Positions 1-46,536 of a stretch of 64,000 nucleotides of DNA are shown in pieces (position 1 is the stretch's first letter; each line of letters starts with the position of its first letter). Position numbers and translations under genes: made by a program. The notes below the pieces were generated by a model that saw only the letters and a list, made by a program, of their open reading frames with translations, searched no databases and was not told the origin of the DNA. This DNA comes from Parcubacteria group bacterium (GTDB lineage: Bacteria > Patescibacteriota > Minisyncoccia > Phycocordibacterales > UBA2135). The DNA lies in assembly GCA_016180525.1 (NCBI GenBank), contig JACPBB010000001.1, forward strand, positions 169,180-233,179, in the 5' to 3' direction.

Positions 1-3000
1 GAAACAACAAGCGTTCTTCCGTAGGGAATCGCGTACTCAATGCGTTCCCCTTTTTTCTTTCCAGCTCCCGCTTCCTCGGTTAATACCACGAGCACCTGCT
101 CATTCCCCTTGTTTTGAATTTCAAGAACCTCTCCGTCGGTACGAGAAACAACTGCGGGGTTTTTGGGAATGCGGCGTTCAAATACCTCTTCAACACGCGG
201 AAGACCTTTTGTAATATCAGATCCGGTAACACCTCCTTGGTGAAAAGTTCTCATGGTCAACTGCGTTCCCGGCTCTCCAATAGCTTGAGCCGCAATAACG
301 CCCACCGCCTCTCCTTGCTCAATTAATTTATGACGTCCCATATCAAGGCCGTAACAATTTCTGCAAAGACCATATACTGTCTTACAAGAAAGCGGGCTCC
401 GAATGAATACTTCTTCTGTACCCGCGTCTGTAATTTTTTTAATCTCTGCCCGTTTCAGAAGAGTCTTTTTAGGGACAATGACAACTCCGTCCGCACCGAC
501 AATATCTTTTACGATAATACGGCCTCCAATCACTTTTGTGAGAGAAACACCGATACCTGAAATATTTTCCTTTAAACTGACCCGACGCCCAACTTTATCT
601 CCGCAATCATCCTCCGTGATAATGACATCCTGGGCGACATCAACAAGCCGCCGCGTTAAATATCCGGCTTTCGCGGTTTGCAGTGCCGTGTCGGTAAGCC
701 CCTTTCTTGACCCGTGAGTAGTAATAAAATATTCAATAGGAGTAAGCCCTTCTTTGTAGGAGGAAACTATAGGGAAGTCAATTGGCACGCCAACGGTATT
801 CATCACAATCCCCTTCATGCCGGTCATCTGCGTAATGGGACCGAGAGAACCTCGGGCGCCTGATTTCCACATATCATGTACCGAGCCGTTAAGCGAAAGT
901 GTTCCGGGAATTGCCTTGGCAACTTCCTCTTTTGCTTTTTCCCAGACTTCAATAACCATTCTGTATCGCTCGACATCAGAGAGAAGCCCGCCGCTCCATT
1001 GTTCCATAATCTCCTTTTCTTTCTTTCTCGCCTCGGCAACAATGCGCTCTTTTTCTTTTGGAACCGCTAAGTCTTCCATGCCCCAGGTAATTCCCGACTT
1101 CGTCGCAAATTTGAATCCAAAATCTTTAATTTTATCGAGAATTGTCGTGATTCGTTCTACGGGATATTTCTCAATAATATTATCCATAATTTCGGAGAGA
1201 GCGCTTTTGTCCACCTCCGCGTTTATATATGGATAATCACTCGGGAGTACGCTGTTAAATAAAAGACGGCCAACAGAAGTTTCAAAAACACCACCCTTAA
1301 GTTGGGCATATTTTTCGGTTTCGGTCGCCATGACTTTTATTTTTGCCCGCAAACTCAAGATGCCGAAATCGTGCGCGGTGATAGCGAGGTTTGGGCTTCC
1401 AAAAACTTTACCCTCTCCTTTCTCACCAGGAAGTATTTTTGTAACCCAGTATGTTCCGAGCGTAATATCAAGCATTTTTGAAATAACTACCGGATATCCC
1501 GTTCCCGGTTTAAATATATTTTTATCCGCCGCCATTATTTCTCGGGCCTCTCCTTGCGCCTCTTTTGAGAGCGGCACGTGAACGGCCATCTGGTCTCCGT
1601 CAAAGTCAGCGTTAAATGCGGGACAAACAAGCGGATGCAATTCAATAGCGTTTCCTTCAATAAGAATTGGTTTAAACGCCTGCACGCCAAGCCGGTGAAG
1701 CGTCGGGGCCCTGTTTAAAAGAACGTATTTATCTTTGATAACATCTTCAAGAATAGCCCAGACTTCCGGTAGCCCTTCTTCAATAAGACGTCCGGCCCCC
1801 CTGATGTTGTACGCCAGTTCCTGTTTTAAAATTTCCGAAATAACAAATGGCCTAAACAGTTCAAGCGCCATGTGTTTTGGAAGGCCGCACTGGTCAAGCC
1901 TTAAGCTCGGGCCGACAACAATGACTGATCGCCCCGAATAATCAACCCGTTTACCCAATAAGTTTTGTCTAAAAAGCCCCTGTTTTCCTTTAAGGTTCTC
2001 CGACAGTGATTTTAAAACTTTTTTCCGGGCATGCGCGGCCTGCTGGGACGTAGAGCGACGCATTGAATTATCAAGAAGCGAGTCAACGGCTTCTTGAAGA
2101 ATTCTTTTTTCGTTACGCAAAATAACATCCGGAGCATTAATTTCCTTAAGTTTTTTAAGACGATTATTCCGATTTATAACACGTCGATACAAGTCATTCA
2201 CGTCGGAGGTGGCATGTCTTCCTCCGTCAAGAGCGACCATCGGCCGAAGCTGGGGAGGCATGACAGGTATCACCGTAAGAAACATCCATTCAGGACAAAC
2301 ATCGGCCTCTACAAGAGATTTAACCAAGGCGAGACGTTTTCGTATTTTAGTTTTTTCCGCGGCCGACGCTTCTTCAAAATCTGCTTCAAGCTGTGTCGCT
2401 AATTTTTCCAGATTTACTTTTTTCAGAAGATTATAGAGAGCCTCTGCGCCAATTTCCGCATGAAAAACACTTCCGTACTTCAGAGAAAAACGGTGATACG
2501 AAACCTCGTCAAGCACGGAACCTGCCCGCAGGTCTTCAATTTCTTTTCTTACTTCGGTAAAACGTTTCTTCAGAATTTCCTTTTCTTTCACGCTCTCGGC
2601 AATTTTTTGCTTTGATTTAAATTCTGATTCAAGGTCTTTTAAAATTTTATTTCGTTCGCCTTCGTATACCTCCGTCACCATGTAGCCGGCAAAATACACA
2701 ACTTTTTCAACATCGGAAAGAGAGAGGTTCAGTAAAAGTCCAATGCGTGAAGGCACTCCCCGCAAAAACCAAATATGAGAAACCGGCGAGGCAAGTTCTA
2801 TGTGGCCCATCCGCTCACGGCGCACGATTGATCGCGTTACCTCAACGCCGCACCGTTCGCAAATAATATTTTTGTAACGAATGCGGCGATATTTACCGCA
2901 ATAGCACTCGTAGTCTTTTGTGGGACCGAATATTCGCTCGTCAAAAAGTCCGTTACGCTCGCTTCTTCCGGTACGATAGTTTATGGTTTCTGCTTTCGTT

Positions 3001-17339: not shown

Positions 17340-18314
17340 TTAGTTTAGAACGCACTTGATACATTCTGGAATCGTAAGTCCAAGAAACAGAATATACACC
17401 AATAATAACACGCTTGCTTCAAGGCGGGTAATTTTACGCTTTGTATACACAAAGAAATGAAACATGAGAAACGCGACAAAAAGAAAGAAAGCGATTACAA
17501 AAAAATTTCCGTTTGAGTCAATTTCAATCGGATTTAAAACAGCCACAAGGCCGACAATCGCCGTTGCATTGTACGCGATTGAGCCCAAAGTATTTCCGAG
17601 CATCGCCGCTCCCTGCCCCATCCGTGAGGCACGCACGCCAAAGATAAATTCCGGAATCGTTGTGCCGAGGGCAAGAAAAATAATCCCAAAGAGGAAAAAA
17701 TTTTCGTCAAAATATGCTCCCACAATTTCTTTTGATGACCAAATAAGCAAAAAAGATGATACGAGCAAAAGCACGGAGCCTCCAAGAAACACTCCAAAAT
17801 GCCGCATCACGTTTGAAACAGAGCGTAGGTCAGGCGGCTCATGAATGGGTATGTGTTTGTGATAATATTCTTCATCCTTAAAAATTTTAATAATATAGAG
17901 TGCGAAAGCGAGAAGGAGAATAACACCGTCACCGCGGGAAATAACCCCATCCACGCCAAGGAGCGTTGGCAAAACCCCGAGAAAAAACACGAGCCAGAAA
18001 TTCTGATTGGAAATTTTCCCCTCTCCTGTTAGGGCGCCGACAATTAAAACGATAATTCCTACCTTTAATGTAATGTTCACCAAATTTCCTCCAAGGATAT
18101 TGCCGAGCGATATATCCGGAATATTCTGAAATGCCGATGAGATACCGATAAACAATTCCGGAATTGAAGTCGCAAGAGACACCAAGAAAAAGGCGGTTAC
18201 AAATTGGGATAAGCGTAAAATAAGCGCGATGCCGCCGAGCGCGCGGGGCAATATTCCCCCCGCCCACACGGTAAGCGCGAGAGAAAGCATAAAGACAAAA
18301 AATGGAAACAGCAT
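17340..18314 (-). CDS. Ca2+/Na+ antiporter (CaCA/YrbG family)
   Basis: 324 aa, about 10 TM segments, two alpha-repeat signatures (GNILGGNLVNITL… and GNTLGSIAYNATAIVGL…). Confidence 0.8.
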   Translation of the reverse strand: MLFPFFVFMLSLALTVWAGGILPRALGGIALILRLSQFVTAFFLVSLATSIPELFIGISSAFQNIPDISLGNILGGNLVNITLKVGIIVLIVGALTGEGKISNQNFWLVFFLGVLPTLLGVDGVISRGDGVILLLAFALYIIKIFKDEEYYHKHIPIHEPPDLRSVSNVMRHFGVFLGGSVLLLVSSFLLIWSSKEIVGAYFDENFFLFGIIFLALGTTIPEFIFGVRASRMGQGAAMLGNTLGSIAYNATAIVGLVAVLNPIEIDSNGNFFVIAFFLFVAFLMFHFFVYTKRKITRLEASVLLLVYILFLGLTIPECIKCVLN

Positions 18315-26152: not shown

Positions 26153-26249
26153 GTAATATGTGTTAAAATTCCAGCGTTTGCTGGATTTTTTTGCAAAAAC
26201 ATTTTTTCCCTATATACTATTCACAGATTATTCAAACGAGGCACCAGAG

Positions 26250-27245
26250 ATGATACAGGACGATGTGTGTATTGACCACGAACGTATACAGGCTATTGCC
26301 CGAACTATTGCTTCCATTCCTGAGCATGGTGGAACATTAAATTTCCACAGCATTGAAACACCGCAAGGTGCACGAGTGCTTTCCGATATGTATCCAGACG
26401 TTGATGACGCTCATGCGATTGATTTCTTTTTCTTTGCCATTCTTCATGATCATGGATTCTGGTTTGGAGATGATGCGGGATATGTCAGCCCTCTGTATGG
26501 AACCATTCTTGGGAAAAACAAGGTAAAGGGTTCTGATTTATTGTGGAAGTCATTAAAACGATCGTTTGATAAAAACCCAACCATCGTAACCATAGAGCGC
26601 CTTTTAAAAATAACTCCGGAGGAATTTGCCGATGTGTTTTCAGATGATAACGGACCAATTCCGTTTCCCGACTGGGAGGCTCGGTATATGCTTACAAAAC
26701 AATACGCGCAGTGGTTTCTAGCCGCGCGCATAAAACCCAAAGACATGCTTTTAAAAGTACGCGCCACGCCCAAACCACTCTTGGAATTTAGAAATCTTAT
26801 GCGAGTTGTACCGGGCTATACAGATCCTTTCAATAAAAAAACACTACTCCTTGCTATGGTGCTTTCATTGCGCCCAGAAAAATTTTTATCCGTCACGGAT
26901 ACAGAGTCATGGGACCCAATTATTGATTACCACCTTATGCGTCTTGCGTTACGGATGGGAATAGTGGCTATTCCGAATTCTAACCCACTCTACAAAAGGC
27001 TGACAAAACGAAATTGGGTAAATGCGGATGAAGAATTATTTATACGACAAGAAGTATATCAGGCAATGAAGAAAGTATTGCAGTACTCACGTAAGCCGCT
27101 TGCGTTTGTAGATTATGCATTCTGGTCTGGAAGAAAATTTTGCCCAGAAATGACGGAACCGAATTGCAGAGAGTGTCCATTTCAGAGTGTGTGCGCAAAA
27201 AAAACTGAGTTATTTCAACCGATATTTAGAACGCTCAATTATTAA
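26250..27245 (+). CDS. HhH-GPD superfamily N-glycosylase-like protein with endonuclease-III-type [4Fe-4S] cluster loop and ~190-aa N-terminal extension (possible Qng1/DUF2419-like or divergent DNA glycosylase)
   Basis: Start taken at ATG 26250 (MIQDDVCIDHERIQ…); promoter-like ttgcaa…tatact lies inside the ORF-track 5' extension. HhH-like …VPGYTDPFNKKTLLLAMVL…. …IDYHLMRLALRMGIV… resembles the EndoIII VDTHIFRVCNR segment with the catalytic Asp. C-terminal C-x7-C-x2-C-x5-C (FCPEMTEPNCRECPFQSVC). Confidence 0.5.
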   Translation: MIQDDVCIDHERIQAIARTIASIPEHGGTLNFHSIETPQGARVLSDMYPDVDDAHAIDFFFFAILHDHGFWFGDDAGYVSPLYGTILGKNKVKGSDLLWKSLKRSFDKNPTIVTIERLLKITPEEFADVFSDDNGPIPFPDWEARYMLTKQYAQWFLAARIKPKDMLLKVRATPKPLLEFRNLMRVVPGYTDPFNKKTLLLAMVLSLRPEKFLSVTDTESWDPIIDYHLMRLALRMGIVAIPNSNPLYKRLTKRNWVNADEELFIRQEVYQAMKKVLQYSRKPLAFVDYAFWSGRKFCPEMTEPNCRECPFQSVCAKKTELFQPIFRTLNY

Positions 27246-28448: not shown

Positions 28449-29201
28449 GTGGATGTTTTTTTGACAGCAGTTTTAACAATCACCCTAATCCTGTTATCCT
28501 CTCCATGTCATGAATTAGGACACATATACGCAATGCGTAAGTTTAATATTCCCATTAAAAAAATTGGATGGAGTTTTGTTCGGGTTGAGCGGGAGGGGGA
28601 CATAGAAAAGCTTGATTTAAAAGACCAAATATACATCTCTGGCGCAGGGCCCTTGTCCAGTATAATCTTTGGGACGATACTTCTTACCATTGCGGGAATA
28701 CGAGTGAATCCTCTTGCAATAGGAGATTTTCAAATCAACTTGCTATTGTGGGCGCCCGTTGTAGCATTGACCATAATTATTTTCGCCCGTTGGTGTTGCC
28801 AATATATTATTCCTCTTGTGGGGCTCTTAGAAATAATTCTCTTGTCCGACTTTCTTTTTTGGCTTTTTACTCATTCGCTTAATGATATTATAGGTGAGCC
28901 AATATCAGCTTCTACTATAAGAATAACTGCACAGCAAACAGTAGAAAACGTGGGTATCGTGTTTACGGCGACGTTCATAGCCGGTTTCTGTTCTCTATTT
29001 TCGGGTGCATTGAATATGTTGCCATTTTACCCAATAGACGGTGGACGCATCGTTCGAGCATATATAAAGACATTCAGTGTTAGTATTGCCGACTGGTTCG
29101 CAATTGTAGGATACTTGCTATACATTGTAATTCGCTTGGTATTGGCAATAGGTTTTGTCGTGTTTCTTTTGTCATCAGATTTAGAAGCTTTTATGAAGTA
29201 A
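28449..29201 (+). CDS. site-2 protease family (M50) membrane metalloprotease
   Basis: HELGH zinc motif at the N-terminus and conserved …LNMLPFYPIDGGRIVRA… (the LDG motif) in a polytopic membrane protein. Confidence 0.8.
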   Translation: MDVFLTAVLTITLILLSSPCHELGHIYAMRKFNIPIKKIGWSFVRVEREGDIEKLDLKDQIYISGAGPLSSIIFGTILLTIAGIRVNPLAIGDFQINLLLWAPVVALTIIIFARWCCQYIIPLVGLLEIILLSDFLFWLFTHSLNDIIGEPISASTIRITAQQTVENVGIVFTATFIAGFCSLFSGALNMLPFYPIDGGRIVRAYIKTFSVSIADWFAIVGYLLYIVIRLVLAIGFVVFLLSSDLEAFMK

Positions 29202-29207
29202 GAATTA

Positions 29208-29240
29208 GGCCCCGATGTTTTCATCGGGGCCCTTTAATTA
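29208..29240 (+). terminator. Intrinsic terminator (GGCCCCGATG-TTTT-CATCGGGGCC + CTTTAATT)
   Basis: Perfect 10-bp stem after the stop. Confidence 0.8.
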
Positions 29241-29317
29241 ACCATTAACGCTTTTAAATACTGTACAAAGAGCCGTATTTTTTGAAATAAAAAGCAATAA
29301 GTTTAAAATCCTGACAA

Positions 29318-29345
29318 AAAACTGTACAGTGTGTCGTACAGTTTT
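29318..29345. terminator. Bidirectional hairpin (AAAACTGTAC-8 nt-GTACAGTTTT)
   Basis: Perfect 10-bp stem whose arms include the A/T runs. On the minus strand it lies about 90 nt downstream of repeat copy A1. Confidence 0.6.
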
Positions 29346-29430
29346 TTGTTGCTACTGTTTGTGCTGAACCCTTAGATCGTAGTCTAAAAGTTAAGTACAA
29401 AAAAATCTATCAGCCCCAGATTAACAGATA

Positions 29431-29616
29431 TTATTTTCTGCTTTTTTTATTGCGAGGAGGTCCTCCTACAACCCCAAGAGTCGCGAGACCAAGAAGAAAA
29501 TCAAGCCCCTCACCAGCGCCACCGCTACCAGGAGATCCCCCGCCAGATTTACTCTTTTTCTTTTTTTTCTCCGACTTATTGCCGGAAGAGAATGATTCAA
29601 ATTTAGGCATATATTT
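29431..29616. repeat. Direct repeat A, copy 1 (conserved ends ttattttctgcttttttattgcgAggagg … ttgccggaagagaatgattcaaatttaggCatatat)
   Basis: The 30-nt left block and 37-nt right block are near-identical to those at 31671-31700 and 31856-31894. The middle is diverged. The minus-strand ORFs over the two copies (29431..29757 and 31650..31880) share no protein similarity, so the element is probably non-coding. Confidence 0.75.
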
Positions 29617-29775
29617 ATAATATTGATAATACTCTCTTTTGTTTAAAAAAACAAGAATACATCTTGTGCGGCAAAATACGGCATTATTTCTCAAAAAACG
29701 ACTCCTCTCCAACCCAAAAAGCGAGTACTGATTATAAGAAAAAGGCTCGTATTTCATATACGAGCCGTTATAATT

Positions 29776-31428
29776 TTACCCGATAGATAGACATGGGTCA
29801 GAATCAGACTGTTTTGCTTTTTTCTGAAGCGCGACAATAATCTCTCTTGCCGAATTAAACCCGCATGCTCCCGTAACTCCTCCGCCTGGATGAGTGCCGG
29901 CACCGCATAAAAAAAGATTCTTAATTGGTGTCCGATAATCTGCGTATCCCCTAAGCGGACGAAGCGAGAATATTTGAGATAAACTCATTGCCCCATGAAA
30001 AATATTTCCTTCGGTAATGCCGAATCTATTTTCAAGGTCAATGGGAGACAAAATTTCAACACCTTCAATAATCTCTGACATGTTGCTGATATACGGCATC
30101 ATGGCCCCCAAAATATTTTTTTCAAAATATTCTTTTTTAGTGACATCATCCCAAAATTTTCCATCAGCTCGATGGTACGGAACATATTGAACAAAAATAC
30201 CCATGACATGCCTGCCGTGAGGCGCGAGGGTGTTGTCAATTGACGATGGTATAGTGATTTCCAAAATAGGCTTCTCAGACGGGTGCCCATGTTTAAAATC
30301 TTCGTGAGCTCGCTGTATGTAATCAGTACTCGGCGCAATATGAATTGACCCCCTGTGTTCGGGTCCGATTCTCATTTTGTGAGACGCGTCATCCGGCATA
30401 CAACGGAAATGTGGCAGTCCGGAAAGAATAAGATTTACTTTCATCACGGGACTTCCAAAATCAAGCAACCGAACATTATGCACAAAATTTTTCAATTTTT
30501 TATTTTTCCCGGCAATGGATACCAATTTTGTAAATGTATTTTTTGGGTCTGCGTTTGAAATAACAATATCGGCATATATACATCTTCCATCTTTCAAAGA
30601 AATTCCTACCGCTCTGCTCTCATCCGGAGAAAGGATGATTTTTTCCACCTTGCAATCCGTATGTATCCTGACGCCAAGATTACGGGCGGAAGCTGCTAAC
30701 GCATTGCTAATTGCCCCCATGCCACCCCGCTGGTAACCCCACACGCCTCGGGATCCGCCGGCCTCTCCCATAACATGATGCAAAAGCACATAACCTGAAA
30801 AGTCCGTAGCCCCAATGGTGCTATCGGTTAAAAGTGTTGCTTTTAACACTTCGCTTTCAAACCAAGAGTTAAGAAATTTTCTTGCATCTTGAGTGAGAAG
30901 CTTGCATAAGCGGATATTTGTAGCCACCCCTCGCTTAACAAGTTCTTTTAAAATTTGTGTGTATTTTTTAATATCACTCATCGTGCGCGGCGGAAAGTAC
31001 GGCGGGGTCATCGTGAGCATGAAATCGGCGATTGAAGCAATTTCTATCAATGCTTTTTCATATTTTGGATATGCTTCTTCGTCTTTGCTCGAAAATTTCC
31101 TTATTTGTCGCATGTTCTCTTCTATGTCATTACCAAGTAGGAGATATTCTCCGCTTTCAAGAGGAGTAAAAGACGCCGGGTCGCGCTTCAAGACTTCGTA
31201 GCCGTATTTTTTTAACTCAAGGTCATTTACAATTCTGGGGAGAAATAAGCTATTTACATATGATGCTGAGGAAATTTTAAACCCGGGAAATGTTGTTTCA
31301 TCCGTAGTGGCACATCCACCGACAACTCTTAACCGTTCAAATATTTCAACATTGTGGCCCGCTTTCGCTAAATAGCATGCCGCAACAAGCCCATTATGAC
31401 CAGCGCCTATAACGACTATTTTCGCCAT
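29776..31428 (-). CDS. phytoene-desaturase (CrtI)-family FAD-dependent oxidoreductase
   Basis: Start at MAKIVVIGAGHNGLVAACYLAKAGHNVEIFE (FAD dinucleotide-binding motif); C-terminal …LFLCGAGTHPGGGVTGA… is typical of CrtI-like amine-oxidase-fold enzymes. Confidence 0.8.
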   Translation of the reverse strand: MAKIVVIGAGHNGLVAACYLAKAGHNVEIFERLRVVGGCATTDETTFPGFKISSASYVNSLFLPRIVNDLELKKYGYEVLKRDPASFTPLESGEYLLLGNDIEENMRQIRKFSSKDEEAYPKYEKALIEIASIADFMLTMTPPYFPPRTMSDIKKYTQILKELVKRGVATNIRLCKLLTQDARKFLNSWFESEVLKATLLTDSTIGATDFSGYVLLHHVMGEAGGSRGVWGYQRGGMGAISNALAASARNLGVRIHTDCKVEKIILSPDESRAVGISLKDGRCIYADIVISNADPKNTFTKLVSIAGKNKKLKNFVHNVRLLDFGSPVMKVNLILSGLPHFRCMPDDASHKMRIGPEHRGSIHIAPSTDYIQRAHEDFKHGHPSEKPILEITIPSSIDNTLAPHGRHVMGIFVQYVPYHRADGKFWDDVTKKEYFEKNILGAMMPYISNMSEIIEGVEILSPIDLENRFGITEGNIFHGAMSLSQIFSLRPLRGYADYRTPIKNLFLCGAGTHPGGGVTGACGFNSAREIIVALQKKAKQSDSDPCLSIG

Positions 31429-31670
31429 GTATTTGCTACCCCCTTCTTTCAAGATACAAAAAATTTAATTTCTAGACCACAGAATATAGGAAAAGGCAAA
31501 TAAAGTCAACCTGAATTCAAAAACTAATTTTTTGAATTCAGCGCTCCTTGTGATAAATAAATAACCGCGCTGCCTACCTGAGACAGGCATACGGGCGGGA
31601 ATCTCCCGAGTGGATAATAAAAAATACCTAGATAAATTCCGGTTATTTTTTACCCCGCATATGCTGGGTT

Positions 31671-31896
31671 TATTTTCTGCTTTTTTATTGCGCGGAGGTT
31701 GTACGATTCGAAGCGTTGCAAAGCAGAGCAAAAAATCAAGTCCTTCAGGCGAGTCACTAGGTCCTCCACAGGATTTATTCTTTTTTCACGACGCCTGCCT
31801 GTGACGAGGTCAGGACTCCGACCAGCGCGGGTGGTCGGATCTTCTTTTTTCCGGCTTTTTGCCGGAAGAGAATGATTCAAATTTAGGTATATATAA
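31671..31896. repeat. Direct repeat A, copy 2
   Basis: See copy 1. Lies between the ABC-transporter stop (31911) and the oxidoreductase start. Confidence 0.75.
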
Positions 31897-31910: not shown

Positions 31911-33701
31911 TTATGACTGATGTAAGCCGCCGATTTGATATTCATACAAATGGCGATAGGTCCCGTTTTTGATTGCAATAAGCTCATCGTGCGTCCCCTC
32001 CTCAACAATACCTCCTTTCTCAAATACAAAGATTCTATCTGCGCGGCGGGTGGTGCTTAAACGATGGGCGATAATAAATGTTGTTCGCCCCTTCATAAGT
32101 TTTTGAAGCGATTCAGAAATTGTATGCTCAATTTTTGCGTCCAGAGCACTTGTCGGCTCATCTAAAATCAAAATTTTCGGGTCGCGCAACATGGCGCGGG
32201 CAATCGCAATTCGCTGTTTTTGTCCCACGGAAAGTTTAATACCTCTCTCGCCAACGATTGTTTCGTAGCCGAGTGGAAGCTTTTTAATAAAAGCGTCAAT
32301 ATGAGCTTCTTTTGCAACACGCTCCACTGCGGCATCTGTCGCATTAAATACCCCGTACTTAATGTTTTCTTTTATGGTGTTATTGAATAGCGCGACTTCT
32401 TGCGGAACAACGCCGATATTTTTTCGTAAATCAATAAGGTTAATTGCTCGTGTATCAATGCCATCAATAAGTACGCTCCCTTTGGTTGGAAAATAATATC
32501 CGGAAATGAGCGCGATGGCCGTACTTTTTCCCACTCCGGACTCTCCGACAAAGGCCACGACTTCTCCTTCTTTTACCTTAAGATTCATGTTCTGAAGAAC
32601 GTCCGATTCACCCTTTCCGTATCTAAATGTAACCGAATTAAATTCTACGGCCCCAGACATAGCAGAGAGATTGCGCGCATTCTTCGGCGCATATTCTTCT
32701 TCTGGTTTAGAATAAATTTCTTCAGCAAGCACGGCTGAGGTGAGTCCGTTTTGGATCGTCTGCCAGCTATGCCCCAGTGAAACAAAGGGGCCAAAGAACA
32801 TAAGCGCGTACCCGTTAAGTGCTACAAGTTCACCAACTGTAATAATTCCGTTTTTAATAAAATATACCGACACAATAAATACGGCAAGCTGCGTGAAAAA
32901 CACGATAATGCGCTGGAAAAAGTTTACATTGCTCCATATTCGCTCCAATCTATACCACAAAGTATAAGTTTTTTCTAAAAGATTTGTTTGTGTTTTTTTT
33001 ATTTCATACGCTTCAGCAACAGCCTGTTTTACGGTTTCTATTTGATGCACCGCTTCAGCCGCATCTCCCCACGATTCATTCCACGTGCGATGGGCTACCT
33101 CGTCTATAGCCGCAACGGGCCTTAAAATACGAACAAGTAGCACAATATATAAGACCACACCAGCGGTAAGAATTCCCGCAAGTGTTATGTTAATCGTCGC
33201 GGCAAGAACAATGCCGATGAGAATACTTAGAAATTGCGGAGCGATGCTAATAGCTGTCTGAAGAATAGCGGATGACCGCCAACCAGCTTTATGAAAACGT
33301 TCTATGGTTTCATTTATCTTTGTATTTTTATGAAAAGAAAGCGGAAGATGAAGCAAGTGAATAAATCCGCTTGTTTGCACAGAAAGATGCAGCCTTGTGT
33401 CCACACTCCGACGAATACGATCAATAACCCAATCTATGTTATTGGCAATAAATTGTATTATTGCCCACAATCCCAAGAAAAAAATCCATGGCTGAATTTC
33501 TGAAACACCACTATCGCCTTGTGAAACATTAATGAGCGTGTCAAAAAAACGTCCAGTAATATAAGGCACAAATCCGTTTGCGGCGGCAGAGATAAGCCCA
33601 AGAAACGAAAGTATTATTAACTGCCGTTTAAATGGGCGCATATGACGCCACAGGGCTTTAATGCCAGTCTGTATTTTTGTTTTTTGTTTTTTATTATCCA
33701 T
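31911..33701 (-). CDS. ABC transporter, fused permease/ATP-binding (MsbA-like exporter)
   Basis: Walker A GESGVGKST, signature LSVGQKQRIAIARAML, Walker B ILILDEPTSALD, six N-terminal TM helices. Start taken at MDNKKQKTKIQ (33701); ORF-track start 33833 adds an unlikely 44 aa. Confidence 0.88.
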   Translation of the reverse strand: MDNKKQKTKIQTGIKALWRHMRPFKRQLIILSFLGLISAAANGFVPYITGRFFDTLINVSQGDSGVSEIQPWIFFLGLWAIIQFIANNIDWVIDRIRRSVDTRLHLSVQTSGFIHLLHLPLSFHKNTKINETIERFHKAGWRSSAILQTAISIAPQFLSILIGIVLAATINITLAGILTAGVVLYIVLLVRILRPVAAIDEVAHRTWNESWGDAAEAVHQIETVKQAVAEAYEIKKTQTNLLEKTYTLWYRLERIWSNVNFFQRIIVFFTQLAVFIVSVYFIKNGIITVGELVALNGYALMFFGPFVSLGHSWQTIQNGLTSAVLAEEIYSKPEEEYAPKNARNLSAMSGAVEFNSVTFRYGKGESDVLQNMNLKVKEGEVVAFVGESGVGKSTAIALISGYYFPTKGSVLIDGIDTRAINLIDLRKNIGVVPQEVALFNNTIKENIKYGVFNATDAAVERVAKEAHIDAFIKKLPLGYETIVGERGIKLSVGQKQRIAIARAMLRDPKILILDEPTSALDAKIEHTISESLQKLMKGRTTFIIAHRLSTTRRADRIFVFEKGGIVEEGTHDELIAIKNGTYRHLYEYQIGGLHQS

Positions 33702-33897
33702 AACAATGTTAATAACCGCACATTCACGGCCTTTAATGGTGACTTCACCGGGATAAGAACAACTGGGAAACCCACGGTTTTCCCAATCCTTCCTCCACGG
33801 GGAACTACCGTTCCCCGACCTCCTCCCGTTCAAATCCAGGAGAAAGATTCATTAAGTAAAATTAAATCTATTTTCAACAGATTTAATTTTACTTATG

Positions 33898-33972
33898 TGA
33901 CCTCACCGGGATTTGAACCCGGGTTTCAGCGTTGAGAACGCCGCGTCCTGGACCAGGCTAGACGATGAGGCC
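33898..33972 (-). tRNA. tRNA-Glu (anticodon CUC)
   Basis: Minus-strand GGCCTCATCGTCTAGCCTGGTCCAGGACGCGGCGTTCTCAACGCTGAAACCCGGGTTCAAATCCCGGTGAGGTCA. Cloverleaf with 7-bp acceptor (one G-U), anticodon stem CGGCG/CGCTG, loop TTCTCAA (anticodon CTC), T-arm CCGGG-TTCAAAT-CCCGG. No encoded CCA. Confidence 0.85.
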
Positions 33973-44036: not shown

Positions 44037-45152
44037 TTACACAATAATACCTCCGCCGAGACATTCTTCTCCGCTATAGAGCACCAGCGATTGGCCCGGG
44101 GTCACCGCTTCCTGCCCATTTTCAAAAAGTATCTTGTATCTTGCCTGCCCCGCACCGAGCTTTGCTCTGGTGTCTGGGGTATCTTGTATCTTGTATCTTA
44201 CTTTTTGCAATGGCTGTCGGTACCGAGTCCGTGCCATATATGTTTTATTAGTATTGGGCGAGTTTCCGGAAACCCAATTAACATCCTGTAAGACAACTTC
44301 TTTCGCGGCGCTTTCTTCAATTTTTTTATGAGAAACGGTAATGATATTTTTTCCAATATCTTTTCCAACAATGTAATATGGTTTATCGTGTGGTGTTTTT
44401 TTGGTAATCGTAAACCCATGCCGCTGTCCGATTGTTAAGAAAAATACCCCGTCGTGATGCCCGATTATTTCCCCTTTTTCATTTACCACATCACCTCTTT
44501 TTTCTTTTATATAATGTTTCAAAAACTCTTTCATGTCCATTTTGCCGACAAAACAAAGCCCTTGACTTTCTTTTCGCTCCGCATTGGGAAGTTCAAATTT
44601 TCTCGCCAACTCCCGCACTTCTGGTTTATTGTATATTCCAACCGGAAAAAGAGTCCGATTTAACTGATCTTGAGTAAGAGTCCAGAGAAAATAACTCTGA
44701 TCTTTATTTAAATCAATGCCCGTCAAGAGTTTATATTGCCCATCTATACCTTCCTCTGTCCGTGCATAATGCCCCGTTGCAATCATATCTGCTCCCATAT
44801 CTTTTGCCTTTTTTAAAAACGCCCCAAATTTAATTGTTTTGTTGCACATAACATCAGGATTCGGCGTTCTTCCTTTTTTGTATTCAGAAATCATATAATC
44901 AATCACTTCTTCTTTGTATTCTTTTTCAAAATCAAATGTAAGAAATGGAATACCGATGTGCGCGGCAGCACGCATCGCATCCAATCTATCATCCCCTCTT
45001 TCGCACTCCAAAAAGTCCGGTTGCCAAACCTTCATAAAAACTCCCGTCACATCATAGCCTTCTTTTTTGAGTAATGCCACAGAGACAGAAGAATCCACAC
45101 CTCCGCTCATCGCTACAAATACCTTTTTCTTTTGCTTATTCATACCAAACAT
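44037..45152 (-). CDS. mnmA: tRNA-specific 2-thiouridylase
   Basis: PP-loop SGGVDSS, catalytic Cys context and C-terminal barrel; full-length collinearity. Two short 7-mer tandem repeats (AAGATAC)x3 and x2 lie in the 3' coding region at 44136-44200. Confidence 0.9.
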   Translation of the reverse strand: MFGMNKQKKKVFVAMSGGVDSSVSVALLKKEGYDVTGVFMKVWQPDFLECERGDDRLDAMRAAAHIGIPFLTFDFEKEYKEEVIDYMISEYKKGRTPNPDVMCNKTIKFGAFLKKAKDMGADMIATGHYARTEEGIDGQYKLLTGIDLNKDQSYFLWTLTQDQLNRTLFPVGIYNKPEVRELARKFELPNAERKESQGLCFVGKMDMKEFLKHYIKEKRGDVVNEKGEIIGHHDGVFFLTIGQRHGFTITKKTPHDKPYYIVGKDIGKNIITVSHKKIEESAAKEVVLQDVNWVSGNSPNTNKTYMARTRYRQPLQKVRYKIQDTPDTRAKLGAGQARYKILFENGQEAVTPGQSLVLYSGEECLGGGIIV

Positions 45153-45528: not shown

Positions 45529-46536
45529 CTACTTAAGATAGCGGGCTTTTTTTGCAACATGTTCGTGAAATGTGCGGCTGTAATAAATATTTCCTTCTTT
45601 GTCAGAGAGATAGTAGAAGTATGGTGACTCTATGGGGGTAAGGGCCGCGCGAATGGAATCAAGTCCGGGGTTTGCAATCGGCCCTACGGGCAACCCCTTA
45701 TATTTATATGTGTTATACGGGGAATCAATTTGTAAATCCTCTGTGGTAAGTGTATATGTGTTTTTGTCGATAATATATTCAAACACCGCATCAACCTGAA
45801 GTGGCATATCAAGTTCTAGCCGCTTCCATAAAATACCGGCAATAGTGCGACGCGTCTCCATGGTTCGCGCCTCTTTTTCCAAAAGGGATGCCATAATGAT
45901 TATATCTTTGAGACTTTTTCCTGACTGAAGAAGATTTTGTTCCACTGCTTTAATTTTTTCATCAAAATTTTCTCTTAATGTCCGATACGCTTTCAATTCT
46001 CCGTCGTTTGGAAAAAACTTGTATGTATCGGGGAATAAATATCCTTCATCTTTTTTTGCAATACGTATAAAAACATCTTTATTAAAGGCAGTGAGGTGTG
46101 TTGCGAAAATATCGGCCATTCCTACAACCGTTGTCCCCTCCGGAATAACAATTGAAACAGGAATGATTCTGAAGTCAGCCGAAGTGATTCTTCTTGCGAT
46201 ACTCCACGCGCTTTCTGGTTTTTTAAAGAGATATTCCCCATGCCGCACCCCACCCTCCCCTTCAAGTGTTATGACTATAATTTCAAACAGTGTTTGCGAT
46301 TTAATTAATCCTCTGTCATATAGCTTTTTTGAAACCTGTGAAAGCGTGAGGCCTTCTTCAACAGTAAAACGAGTATCGGCTCCAAAAGACACGGGCGGGC
46401 TTACAAAAATAAAATATAAAACAATAATTATTATTGCGAACAAAAGAAGTAGCTGCCAAATAATGGGGTATCGTTTTAATATCCGAACAGTAGCTATGTC
46501 TTTTTTTTCTAGCCAGGAAATAATATCTGGGGGCAT
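45529..46536 (-). CDS. mltG: endolytic murein transglycosylase
   Basis: YceG-family signature …YKGLPVGPIANPGLDSIRAALTP…YFYYLSDKEGN… and an N-terminal TM anchor. Confidence 0.85.
   Translation of the reverse strand: MPPDIISWLEKKDIATVRILKRYPIIWQLLLLFAIIIIVLYFIFVSPPVSFGADTRFTVEEGLTLSQVSKKLYDRGLIKSQTLFEIIVITLEGEGGVRHGEYLFKKPESAWSIARRITSADFRIIPVSIVIPEGTTVVGMADIFATHLTAFNKDVFIRIAKKDEGYLFPDTYKFFPNDGELKAYRTLRENFDEKIKAVEQNLLQSGKSLKDIIIMASLLEKEARTMETRRTIAGILWKRLELDMPLQVDAVFEYIIDKNTYTLTTEDLQIDSPYNTYKYKGLPVGPIANPGLDSIRAALTPIESPYFYYLSDKEGNIYYSRTFHEHVAKKARYLK

What the first reader, a model, noticed from the sequence alone, without database searches (positions are those of the whole stretch)
29431..31896. 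Diverged direct repeats (about 190 and 225 nt) bracketing a CrtI-family oxidoreductase gene
Two elements share near-identical 30-nt and 37-nt terminal blocks (ttattttctgcttttttattgcgNggagg … ttgccggaagagaatgattcaaatttaggYatatat) but have diverged interiors. They sit immediately downstream of the ABC-transporter gene and downstream of the oxidoreductase gene, so together they flank the oxidoreductase gene. ORFs predicted across them are not conserved between copies, so they are probably RNA or regulatory elements, or the recombination scar of a cassette insertion. Copy 1 is followed by a terminator hairpin (29318-29345).
Basis: seen in the sequence. Interest (0 to 1): 0.55.

Follow-up and report, generated by a model that had tools for sequence, protein, structure and literature searches.

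The report
Duplicated small gene flanking inserted oxidoreductase
The two repeats are copies of a tiny lineage-specific protein gene, read on the opposite strand: one copy is intact and the other is broken, and they sit on either side of an oxidoreductase gene that a related bacterium lacks, which makes this an ordinary trace of gene gain rather than a new RNA or regulatory element.

Summary
The repeats are real: 29431-29615 and 31670-31895, the only two copies in the window, sharing an identical 29-mer that no shuffle reproduced.

They are not RNA or regulatory elements. On the minus strand, copy 1 is a 59-aa ORF (29431-29610), annotated at NCBI as a hypothetical protein of a Parcubacteria MAG. 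Copy 2 is its paralogue with three disabling lesions:
- the start codon ATG has become ATA;
- a 54-nt G+C-rich insert carries two in-frame TGA codons;
- a 1-nt deletion lies just before the stop codon.

The case for a coding sequence:
- the indels between the copies are 54, 9 and 3 nt;
- dN/dS is about 0.27;
- synonymous changes are in excess only in this frame;
- a 66-aa orthologue with the same start, the same stop and the same position exists in a related Parcubacteria genome.

That relative keeps ten flanking genes and a tRNA-Glu in the same order. It has one small gene between the ABC exporter and the M50 protease, and no oxidoreductase. The CrtO/CrtI-like oxidoreductase has no relative above 50% identity, and almost all of its best matches are outside the CPR.

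So a gene-gain event left the small gene duplicated on both sides, and the redundant copy decayed. The small protein's function is unknown. I infer that it is a partner of the ABC exporter. Interest is low to moderate.

The parts
29431..29610 (-). Copy 1: intact small gene of 59 aa (MPKFESFSSGNKSEKKKKKSKSGGGSPGSGGAGEGLDFLLGLATLGVVGGPPRNKKSRK), ATG at 29610-29608 and TAA at 29433-29431.
   Evidence: Translation. An identical protein is annotated as hypothetical protein HYT93_01065, Parcubacteria group bacterium. A 66-aa orthologue sits in the same position in L084/L086. dN/dS to the orthologue is about 0.23.
29617..29645 (-). Promoter-like site TAAACA-17-TATTAT. Its -10 hexamer ends 6 nt before the ATG of copy 1 and there is no Shine-Dalgarno sequence, so the mRNA is probably leaderless (inferred).
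   Evidence: Consensus scan. The same geometry, a -10-like hexamer then 6 nt then the start codon, appears in copy 2 and in L084. Many genes in the window have a TATAAT-like box 6-10 nt before the ATG.
29312..29351 (.). Palindromic A/T-flanked hairpin downstream of copy 1 in its coding direction. It is a probable bidirectional terminator between copy 1 and the convergent M50 gene.
   Evidence: (I8).
29744..29766 (-). Intrinsic terminator of the oxidoreductase gene (GGCTCGTAT..ATACGAGCC followed by TTTTT).
29776..31428 (-). FAD-dependent oxidoreductase of 550 aa, CrtO/CrtI-like. This is the gene lying between the repeats, and it is absent from the syntenic relative.
   Evidence: Pfam Amino_oxidase and NAD_binding_8. 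NCBIfam CrtO 294 bits and crtI_fam 134 bits, both below their cut-offs. Best GTDB relatives are at most 50% identical and mostly non-CPR. No counterpart in L086.
31481..31541 (-). A 13-bp hairpin (31541-31511) followed by the promoter-like site TTGACT-17-TATTCT (31509-31481), which gives the oxidoreductase its own expression signals. An SD-like GAAGGGGG lies further on, outside these coordinates, shortly before the ATG at 31428.
31670..31890 (-). Copy 2: decayed paralogue of the small gene, 20 nt downstream of the ABC gene stop, which is the ancestral position. ATA replaces ATG at 31890-31888. The terminal T run (31681-31686) is one base shorter than in copy 1, which puts the aligned TAA out of frame.
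   Evidence: The lesions are reproduced in three independent assemblies.
31786..31841 (-). The 54-nt G+C-rich insertion specific to copy 2 (about 64% G+C measured over a 61-nt stretch containing it, against about 43% for the window). It carries in-frame TGA codons at 31812-31810 and 31788-31786 and a 7-8 bp hairpin. It is absent from copy 1 and from the orthologue. The boundaries are uncertain by a few nt because A runs flank it.
   Evidence: No other copy of the insert in the window. On the plus strand it looks like a terminator.
31911..33701 (-). MsbA-like ABC exporter half-transporter, upstream and co-directional with the small gene. It is 81% identical to the relative's ABC gene, which is likewise followed by the small gene.
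28449..29201 (+). M50 (site-2) protease gene, convergent with copy 1. It marks the other ancestral flank.

Best explanation
The repeats are two paralogous copies of a small protein-coding gene on the minus strand. The gene is specific to a narrow Parcubacteria (CPR) lineage.

The ancestral locus was ABC exporter -> small gene -> terminator <- M50 protease. In this lineage a self-contained oxidoreductase unit (promoter, SD, CrtO/CrtI-like FAD enzyme, terminator) was gained at the small gene, and the small gene ended up on both sides of it. The copy next to M50 (copy 1, 59 aa) remains intact. It is probably made from a leaderless mRNA with its own -10 box and ended by the hairpin at 29312-29351. 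The copy next to the ABC gene (copy 2) became redundant and is now a pseudogene: it has lost its start codon, gained a 54-nt insertion with two TGA stops, and has a 1-nt deletion just before the stop.

Shown by the data: the coding signature, the orthologue, the synteny, the absence of the oxidoreductase in the relative, and the three lesions.

Inferred, not shown:
- that the oxidoreductase was gained horizontally;
- how the duplication arose (single-crossover integration of a circle carrying a homologous copy, or tandem duplication followed by insertion);
- that gene conversion or recombination explains the near-identical ends;
- that the 59-aa protein is a partner of the ABC exporter it always follows. 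The protein has a basic, disordered N-terminal half and one short amphipathic helix.
For: - **ORF.** Copy 1 is a 59-aa ATG..TAA ORF annotated at NCBI.
- **Indels.** The internal indels between the copies are 54, 9 and 3 nt. The only non-triplet indel is the 1-nt change in the terminal A run.
- **Substitution pattern.** Differing codons are 10 synonymous and 16 non-synonymous in the ORF frame, against 3/25 and 2/26 in the other two frames of that strand. Fisher p=0.004; for copy 1 vs the orthologue p=0.0004.
- **dN/dS.** Nei-Gojobori dN/dS is 0.20/0.74 between the copies and 0.31/1.39 between copy 1 and the orthologue.
- **Orthologue.** L084/L086 encode a 66-aa protein, MPKFESFSPSGKKPEQ...ATLGLVSPPSEKRKKSRK, with the same start and stop, 25 nt after the ABC gene and convergent with M50.
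- **Synteny.** Ten gene pairs at 41-89% identity plus tRNA-Glu(CTC) are in the same order. Only the oxidoreductase and orf361 lack counterparts.
- **Timing.** The copies are closer to each other (67% nt) than either is to the orthologue (57-59%), so the duplication came after the lineages split.
- **Oxidoreductase.** Its best matches among 185,579 species genomes are at most 50% identical and come from Planctomycetota, Gammaproteobacteria and Acidobacteriota; only one of the best 80 is labelled CPR, a Saccharibacteria MAG. None of those loci carries the small gene.
- **Genetic code.** TGA is a genuine stop here.
- **Reproducibility.** The copy 2 lesions appear in three independent assemblies.
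- **No RNA signal.** Fold z-scores are -0.40 for copy 1 and 0.04 for the orthologue.
Against: - Only two lineages carry the gene, so the family rests on three sequences. There is no expression or proteomic evidence.
- The antisense frame that shares wobble positions is also open in copy 1 and in the orthologue. For the copy 1 vs copy 2 pair alone it gives a similar synonymous/non-synonymous ratio, 11/16. It is rejected only by the orthologue comparison (7/29 against 15/24), by the lack of a conserved start, and by gene orientation.
- At 4-6-fold degenerate codons the terminal blocks are more alike than the interior, 1/10 against 7/10 differing, p=0.02. Simple pseudogene decay does not predict this. 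It needs gene conversion or some constraint at the nucleotide level.
- Amino-acid changes unique to copy 2 do not significantly outnumber those unique to copy 1, 6 against 3. Relaxed selection on copy 2 is therefore shown by the lesions, not by rates.
- Whether the oxidoreductase was gained or lost rests on one outgroup plus its scattered distribution.
Confidence: 0.8

Rival explanations
1. Both repeats are genes for a small non-coding RNA, or cis-regulatory RNA elements, with conserved 5' and 3' ends and a variable middle.
For: The ends are nearly identical while the interiors have diverged. A CCGGC..GNCGG hairpin in the 5' part can form in copy 1, copy 2 and the orthologue. Copy 2 folds better than its shuffles, z=-2.44. 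There is a weak hit to lysM-TM7 RNA, a CPR motif, at 29522-29660.
Against: The indels are multiples of three, and there is a frame-specific excess of synonymous changes with dN/dS of 0.2-0.3. ATG and TAA are conserved at the exact limits of the homology in the orthologue. Fold z-scores are -0.40 and 0.04 for the two intact sequences, and the z of copy 2 comes from its private 54-nt insert. The Rfam hit scores 24.5 bits against a gathering score of 61.5, with several non-canonical pairs. No compensatory double changes were seen in the hairpin.
Confidence: 0.06
2. The repeats are the ends or recombination sites of a mobile cassette (MITE-like, attC/att-like, or a long target duplication), and their function is to mobilise the oxidoreductase gene.
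For: Direct repeats flank a single self-contained gene that the syntenic relative lacks. Identical blocks of 29-37 nt could support RecA-dependent loop-out.
Against: The single copy at the same site in the relative is an intact gene, not an empty att site. The repeats have no terminal inverted repeats. There are only two copies in 64 kb, and real matches outside this genome were found only in the one related lineage (L084/L086), nowhere else in the genome, metagenome or viral collections. No integrase or transposase was found among the flanking genes tested. The copies are old, with dS about 0.74. All eight independent assemblies show the occupied state, and no excised variant was seen.
Confidence: 0.07
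3. Copy 2 is not dead. It has been retained as a functional derivative: for example a decoy or competitor RNA sharing the 5' and 3' ends of the copy 1 mRNA, a leader that modulates read-through from the ABC gene into the oxidoreductase, or a recoded ORF.
For: The terminal blocks of copy 2 are better conserved than its interior at degenerate codons, p=0.02. Copy 2 keeps the -10-like box and its spacing. The overall dN/dS between the copies is low, 0.27.
Against: There are three independent disabling lesions. TGA is a stop in this genome. There is no in-frame alternative start. Identity at the ends is equally explained by gene conversion between paralogues. Between copy 1 and the orthologue the same 5' block shows synonymous differences at roughly the interior rate (read from the alignment, not counted by a script), which argues against a nucleotide-level function.
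Confidence: 0.07
4. The two-copy arrangement with the oxidoreductase is ancestral, and the relative lost the oxidoreductase by recombination between the repeats. That makes the event a deletion in the relative rather than an insertion here.
For: Direct repeats are the natural substrate for such a deletion. With one outgroup, gain and loss each cost one event. The orthologue shares some residues with copy 2 (GKKPE, F before ATL) and others with copy 1.
Against: The copies resemble each other more than either resembles the orthologue. The oxidoreductase has almost no CPR relatives among its best 80 hits.
Confidence: 0.1

Closest known systems
Gene duplicates flanking integrated DNA (Campbell-type single-crossover integration, or duplication followed by insertion), with the redundant paralogue decaying
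   Same: Direct repeats of a host gene bracket a gene absent from a syntenic relative. One copy keeps the upstream ancestral flank and the other keeps the downstream ancestral flank. One copy is intact and the other carries several disabling lesions.
   Different: No integrase, plasmid or phage remnant is present. The copies are old and diverged (dS about 0.74), so the mechanism cannot be read from the junctions. The repeated unit is almost exactly the ORF plus about 30 nt upstream.
Small accessory proteins encoded beside transporters (AcrZ with AcrB, KdpF with KdpABC, CydX with CydAB). The comparison comes from general knowledge and was not tested here.
   Same: A protein under 70 aa is encoded immediately downstream of, and co-directional with, a membrane transporter gene. 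That position is conserved in two lineages whose other genes are only 41-89% identical.
   Different: There is no sequence or family match. The hydrophobic stretch is only about 11-13 residues long and is interrupted by Asp or Glu, so it is not a canonical transmembrane helix. AF2 predicts one helix (residues 33-45) and disorder elsewhere. No interaction has been shown.
lysM-TM7 RNA (Rfam RF03005)
   Same: It is a CPR-associated motif, and it gives a weak full-length match over the copy 1 promoter and 5' coding region.
   Different: The score is 24.5 bits against a gathering score of 61.5, and several pairs are non-canonical. The region is protein-coding. I treat it as a chance match.
CrtI/CrtO phytoene-desaturase-type flavoenzymes (for the bracketed gene)
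   Same: It has an FAD/NAD(P)-binding Rossmann N-terminus and an Amino_oxidase domain, and it aligns end to end with the CrtO model.
   Different: It falls below the curated cut-offs of both models (294 against 1000 bits, 134 against 238 bits). No carotenoid genes were found among the flanking genes examined. The substrate is unknown.

Membership tests
Protein-coding small ORF (copy 1) | An open frame whose start and stop are conserved in an orthologue | tested here: met
   ATG..TAA of 59 aa in the window and 66 aa in L084/L086. Homology ends at the stop codon.
Protein-coding small ORF (copy 1) | Frame-specific excess of synonymous change (dN/dS below 1) and indels in multiples of three | tested here: met
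   Synonymous/non-synonymous counts of 10/16 and 15/24 in frame, against 2-5 synonymous per 24-34 non-synonymous in the other two frames of the coding strand. dN/dS is 0.23-0.27. Indels are 54, 9 and 3 nt.
Protein-coding small ORF (copy 1) | Evidence of translation (peptides, ribosome footprints) | not testable with these tools
   No expression data are available.
Pseudogene (copy 2) | Disabling lesions relative to the intact paralogue and the orthologue | tested here: met
   ATG has become ATA. Two in-frame TGA codons lie in a private 54-nt insert. One base is missing from the terminal A run. TGA is a stop in this genome. The lesions are identical in three assemblies.
Structured non-coding RNA / Rfam family | A match at or above a family's gathering score | tested here: not met
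   The only family above its gathering score in the window is tRNA. The best match in the region is lysM-TM7, 24.5 bits against 61.5.
Structured non-coding RNA / Rfam family | Folding energy better than shuffled controls, in all homologues | tested here: not met
   z = -0.40 for copy 1 and 0.04 for the orthologue. Only copy 2 reaches -2.44, because of its insert.
Structured non-coding RNA / Rfam family | Compensatory base-pair changes | tested here: inconclusive
   There are only three sequences. The 5' hairpin shows one-sided changes only (by inspection).
MITE / IS-type mobile element | Terminal inverted repeats and several dispersed copies | tested here: not met
   No inverted pair joins the ends of a copy. 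There are two copies in 64 kb. Outside this genome, real matches were found only in the one related lineage.
Site-specific recombination cassette (integron or att type) | An integrase or recombinase nearby, and an empty site in relatives that is a short att sequence | tested here: not met
   The flanking genes tested encode a YunG/deaminase protein, a HIT-like protein, an M50 protease, an ABC exporter, GDH and UDG, plus one ORF with no Pfam match. The 'empty' site in the relative is a full small gene.
CrtI family (TIGR02734) / CrtO (NF045689), for the bracketed gene | A score above the curated NCBIfam cut-off | tested here: not met
   crtI_fam scores 134.2 against 238.1 and CrtO scores 294.4 against 1000. 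Pfam Amino_oxidase is met, 63.4 against 19.8.
Transporter-associated small membrane protein (AcrZ/KdpF/CydX type) | A transmembrane helix and physical association with the transporter | not testable with these tools
   Only conserved adjacency to the ABC gene and one predicted 13-residue helix. The hydrophobic stretch is too short for a canonical TM helix; this was judged by hand, with no predictor run.

The most novel reading that the evidence does not exclude
The 59-66-aa protein (an MPKFESFS N-terminus, a Lys-rich disordered segment, one short amphipathic helix and a KKSRK tail) is a previously unrecognised, dedicated micro-subunit or regulator of an MsbA-like ABC exporter in a Parcubacteria clade. 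In addition, the decayed copy 2 is retained because its conserved ends still act at the RNA or DNA level, either as a decoy for the copy 1 mRNA or as a recombination handle that allows reversible loss of the oxidoreductase gene.
Probability: 0.12. Interest if true: 0.5.

Novelty: new member of a known kind. Interest (0 to 1): 0.25.

Why it matters
- **Annotation.** It corrects an attractive but wrong reading (a new RNA or regulatory repeat) to a well-supported ordinary one: a duplicated small gene with one pseudogene copy.
- **Gene gain in CPR bacteria.** It documents a dated gene gain in a reduced CPR genome, with the ancestral empty state preserved in a relative. Few such cases have been traced in these uncultured bacteria.
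- **An orphan small protein.** It flags a fast-evolving small protein that is consistently coupled to an ABC exporter, which could be tested as a transporter partner.
- **A caution for scanning.** It shows that judging ORF conservation on one strand can miss small genes on the other strand.

Tried and rejected
- **Alternative genetic code (TGA as sense) to rescue copy 2.** Rejected. TGA ends 6 of 40 long ORFs, and it ends the HIT-like gene close to where its orthologue ends.
- **Antisense (plus-strand) ORF.** It is open in copy 1 and in the orthologue, but it is poorly conserved, has no conserved start and is broken in copy 2.
- **Remnant of an ABC gene 3' end upstream of copy 1, as evidence for a larger duplicated unit.** None found.
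- **More family members.** The word-index search, the profile search of 1.84 billion representatives, and the genome, metagenome and viral scans returned only the two known proteins. The five metagenome pattern hits are chance N-terminal matches. One of them, L091, is a 392-aa CPR-like protein that also begins MPKFESFS.
- **Small-gene homologues beside the oxidoreductase in other phyla.** None.
- **Other copies of the 54-nt insert.** None in the window.
- **Pfam, NCBIfam and PDB matches for the small protein.** None meaningful.
- **An empty-site or excised variant in the same population.** Eight assemblies are all identical to the window. Look-ups with the ABC protein and with the 222-aa form of M50 found no record.
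- **Literature searches.** Nothing relevant.
Full report
**Observation**

The region was read directly and scanned for repeats. Two direct repeats exist at 29431-29615 and 31670-31895, with a start-to-start spacing of 2280 nt. The 29-mer TTGCCGGAAGAGAATGATTCAAATTTAGG occurs exactly twice in the 64-kb window and in none of 100 shuffles. The other terminal block differs by one mismatch and one base of a T run. The interiors align end to end at about 67% identity, with gaps of 54, 9, 3 and 1 nt. There are only two copies in the window.

**Strand and coding potential**

The three neighbouring genes are:
- an M50 protease (28449-29201, plus strand);
- an FAD oxidoreductase (29776-31428, minus strand);
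- an MsbA-like ABC exporter (31911-33701 or 33833, minus strand).

Read on the minus strand, copy 1 is an ATG..TAA ORF of 59 aa at 29431-29610. Exactly this protein is annotated at NCBI as hypothetical protein HYT93_01065 of a Parcubacteria group MAG.

Copy 2 aligns to it in the same frame but is broken in three ways:
- it starts with ATA instead of ATG;
- it carries a private 54-nt G+C-rich insertion with two in-frame TGA codons;
- it lacks one A in the terminal A run, so the aligned TAA is out of frame.

TGA is a genuine stop in this genome. It ends 6 of 40 long ORFs, including the HIT-like gene, which stops six codons past the point where its orthologue ends.

**Coding signature**

The internal gaps between the copies are 54, 9 and 3 nt.

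| Comparison | Frame | Synonymous / non-synonymous differing codons |
|---|---|---|
| copy 1 vs copy 2 | ORF frame | 10 / 16 |
| copy 1 vs copy 2 | other two minus-strand frames | 3 / 25 and 2 / 26 |
| copy 1 vs copy 2 | plus-strand frame sharing wobble positions | 11 / 16 |
| copy 1 vs orthologue | ORF frame | 15 / 24 |
| copy 1 vs orthologue | plus-strand frame sharing wobble positions | 7 / 29 |

Fisher p is 0.004 for the copy pair and 0.0004 for copy 1 against the orthologue. Nei-Gojobori estimates give dN 0.20 and dS 0.74 between the copies, and dN 0.31 and dS 1.39 between copy 1 and the orthologue.

The plus-strand frame that shares wobble positions is also open. It gives a similar ratio for the copy pair, but it fails in the orthologue comparison, has no conserved start, and is interrupted in copy 2.

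RNA folding gives no support for a structured RNA. The z-score is -0.40 for copy 1 and 0.04 for the orthologue. Only copy 2 reaches -2.44, and that is due to the hairpin in its private insert. Rfam finds only a tRNA above threshold in the window. In the region itself the best match is lysM-TM7 at 24.5 bits against a gathering score of 61.5.

**Comparative evidence**

The closest M50 homologue (41% identity) lies on a contig of another Parcubacteria MAG (L084, GCA_016181775.1). There the order is M50 (+), a 66-aa gene (-), the ABC exporter (-), GDH (+), UDG (-). The 66-aa protein, MPKFESFSPSGKKPEQKKRKNRSPSKKSGGSGLSGSGAGPALGGLIEFATLGLVSPPSEKRKKSRK, is a clear orthologue of copy 1.

A longer contig (L086, GCA_964653905.1) extends the synteny. 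Ten gene pairs at 41-89% identity (ABC 81%, UDG 89%) and tRNA-Glu(CTC) are in the same order. Only the oxidoreductase and a 361-aa ORF (26160-27245) lack counterparts.

Copy 2 keeps the ancestral upstream flank, 20 nt after the ABC stop against 25 nt in the relative. Copy 1 keeps the ancestral downstream flank, the terminators and the convergent M50 gene. The copies are closer to each other than either is to the orthologue (67% against 57-59% nt), which places the duplication after the lineages split.

**The bracketed gene**

The oxidoreductase is CrtO/CrtI-like but falls below both curated cut-offs. It has its own promoter-like site, SD and terminator. Among one genome for each of 185,579 species, its best relatives are at most 50% identical. 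They come from Planctomycetota, Gammaproteobacteria, Acidobacteriota and others, with a single Saccharibacteria MAG among the best 80. None of these loci carries the small gene. Its G+C content matches the surrounding genome. Horizontal gain that is not recent is the most economical inference, but it remains an inference.

**Mechanism**

Shown by the data: a small protein gene was duplicated around a gene that the relative lacks, and one copy is now disabled.

Inferred:
- How the duplication arose. The candidates are single-crossover integration of a circular molecule carrying a homologous copy, or tandem duplication followed by insertion. No ABC-gene remnant lies upstream of copy 1. The flanks beyond about 30 nt upstream and beyond the stop codon no longer align, so the junctions give no information.
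- Why the ends are so alike. At 4-6-fold degenerate codons, 1 of 10 differ in the terminal blocks against 7 of 10 in the interior, p=0.02. The same 5' block shows ordinary synonymous differences between copy 1 and the orthologue (read from the alignment, not counted by a script). I therefore attribute the identity to gene conversion or recombination between the paralogues rather than to a nucleotide-level function.
- How copy 1 is expressed. It probably has its own promoter and a leaderless mRNA. A -10-like hexamer ends 6 nt before the start codon in copy 1, in copy 2 and in the orthologue, with no SD. Many other genes in the window show the same layout.

**The small protein**

It has no Pfam, NCBIfam or PDB relative. 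No homologue beyond the two lineages was found among 5.8 billion clusters or 1.84 billion representatives. AF2 predicts a single helix at residues 33-45 and disorder elsewhere, with mean pLDDT 68. Its constant position directly after an MsbA-like exporter suggests a transporter partner. That is a hypothesis only.

**Robustness**

Eight independent assemblies from the same study are 100% identical to the window, and three of them span copy 2. The lesions are therefore not assembly errors, and no excised variant was seen.

**Verdict**

The repeat is real. It is a duplicated small gene plus its pseudogene, marking a gene-gain site. It is not a new RNA or regulatory element. This is of modest interest as a documented gene acquisition in a CPR genome and as a pointer to an orphan small protein associated with an ABC exporter.

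Noticed in passing
window 26160-27245 (+): A 361-aa ORF with no Pfam or NCBIfam match lies between the YunG/dCMP-deaminase gene and the 123-aa gene. It has no counterpart in the otherwise syntenic relative L086, so it is a second lineage-specific indel within about 3 kb of the first.
   Followed up: partly
window-wide, e.g. upstream of 34119, 17340-18314(-), 44037-45152(-), 45529-46536(-), 12293: Many ATG-start genes have a TATAAT-like hexamer only about 1-10 nt upstream of the start codon. Only 8 of 28 starts checked have an SD-like motif. This suggests that leaderless mRNAs are common in this Parcubacteria genome.
   Followed up: partly
window 29566-29586 (-), 31846-31866 (-); L084 about 2030-2050 (-): A short palindromic hairpin inside the coding sequence (UUCCGGC-AAUAA-GUCGGAG in copy 1, UUCCGGC-AAAAA-GCCGGAA in copy 2, UCCGG-GAAAAAG-CCGGA in the orthologue) can form in all three sequences. 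Only one-sided changes were seen. It may be a chance by-product of the S-S-G-K-K-P-E codons or an element of the mRNA.
   Followed up: partly
window 31817-31839 (+): Read on the plus strand, the private 54-nt insert of copy 2 together with the adjacent T run (the antisense of the Lys codons) scores as an intrinsic terminator. It could block antisense transcription, or it could be coincidental. The origin of the insert is unknown, and there is no other copy in the window.
   Followed up: partly
window 29522-29660 (-): A weak full-length match to Rfam lysM-TM7 RNA, a motif described from CPR/TM7 bacteria: 24.5 bits against a gathering score of 61.5, E=0.15 for the 2.8-kb search. I judge it a chance match in A-rich sequence.
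   Followed up: yes
L091 3235-4413 (-) (metagenome contig OBEQ010290164.1): A 392-aa protein in a CPR-like gene context also begins MPKFESFS, followed by a Lys/Pro-rich segment and a hydrophobic stretch. This is either a chance match or a shared N-terminal motif. It was not resolved.
   Followed up: no
window 33897-33972 (-) and L086 6073-6146: tRNA-Glu(CTC) is conserved between the GDH and ABC genes in both genomes, which confirms the synteny. It plays no evident part in the insertion.
   Followed up: yes
window 29208-29231 and L084 about 1700-1728: The G+C-rich terminator hairpin of the M50 gene (GGCCCCGATG..CATCGGGGCC) is conserved at the nucleotide level in the relative, although the M50 proteins are only 41% identical.
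   Followed up: no
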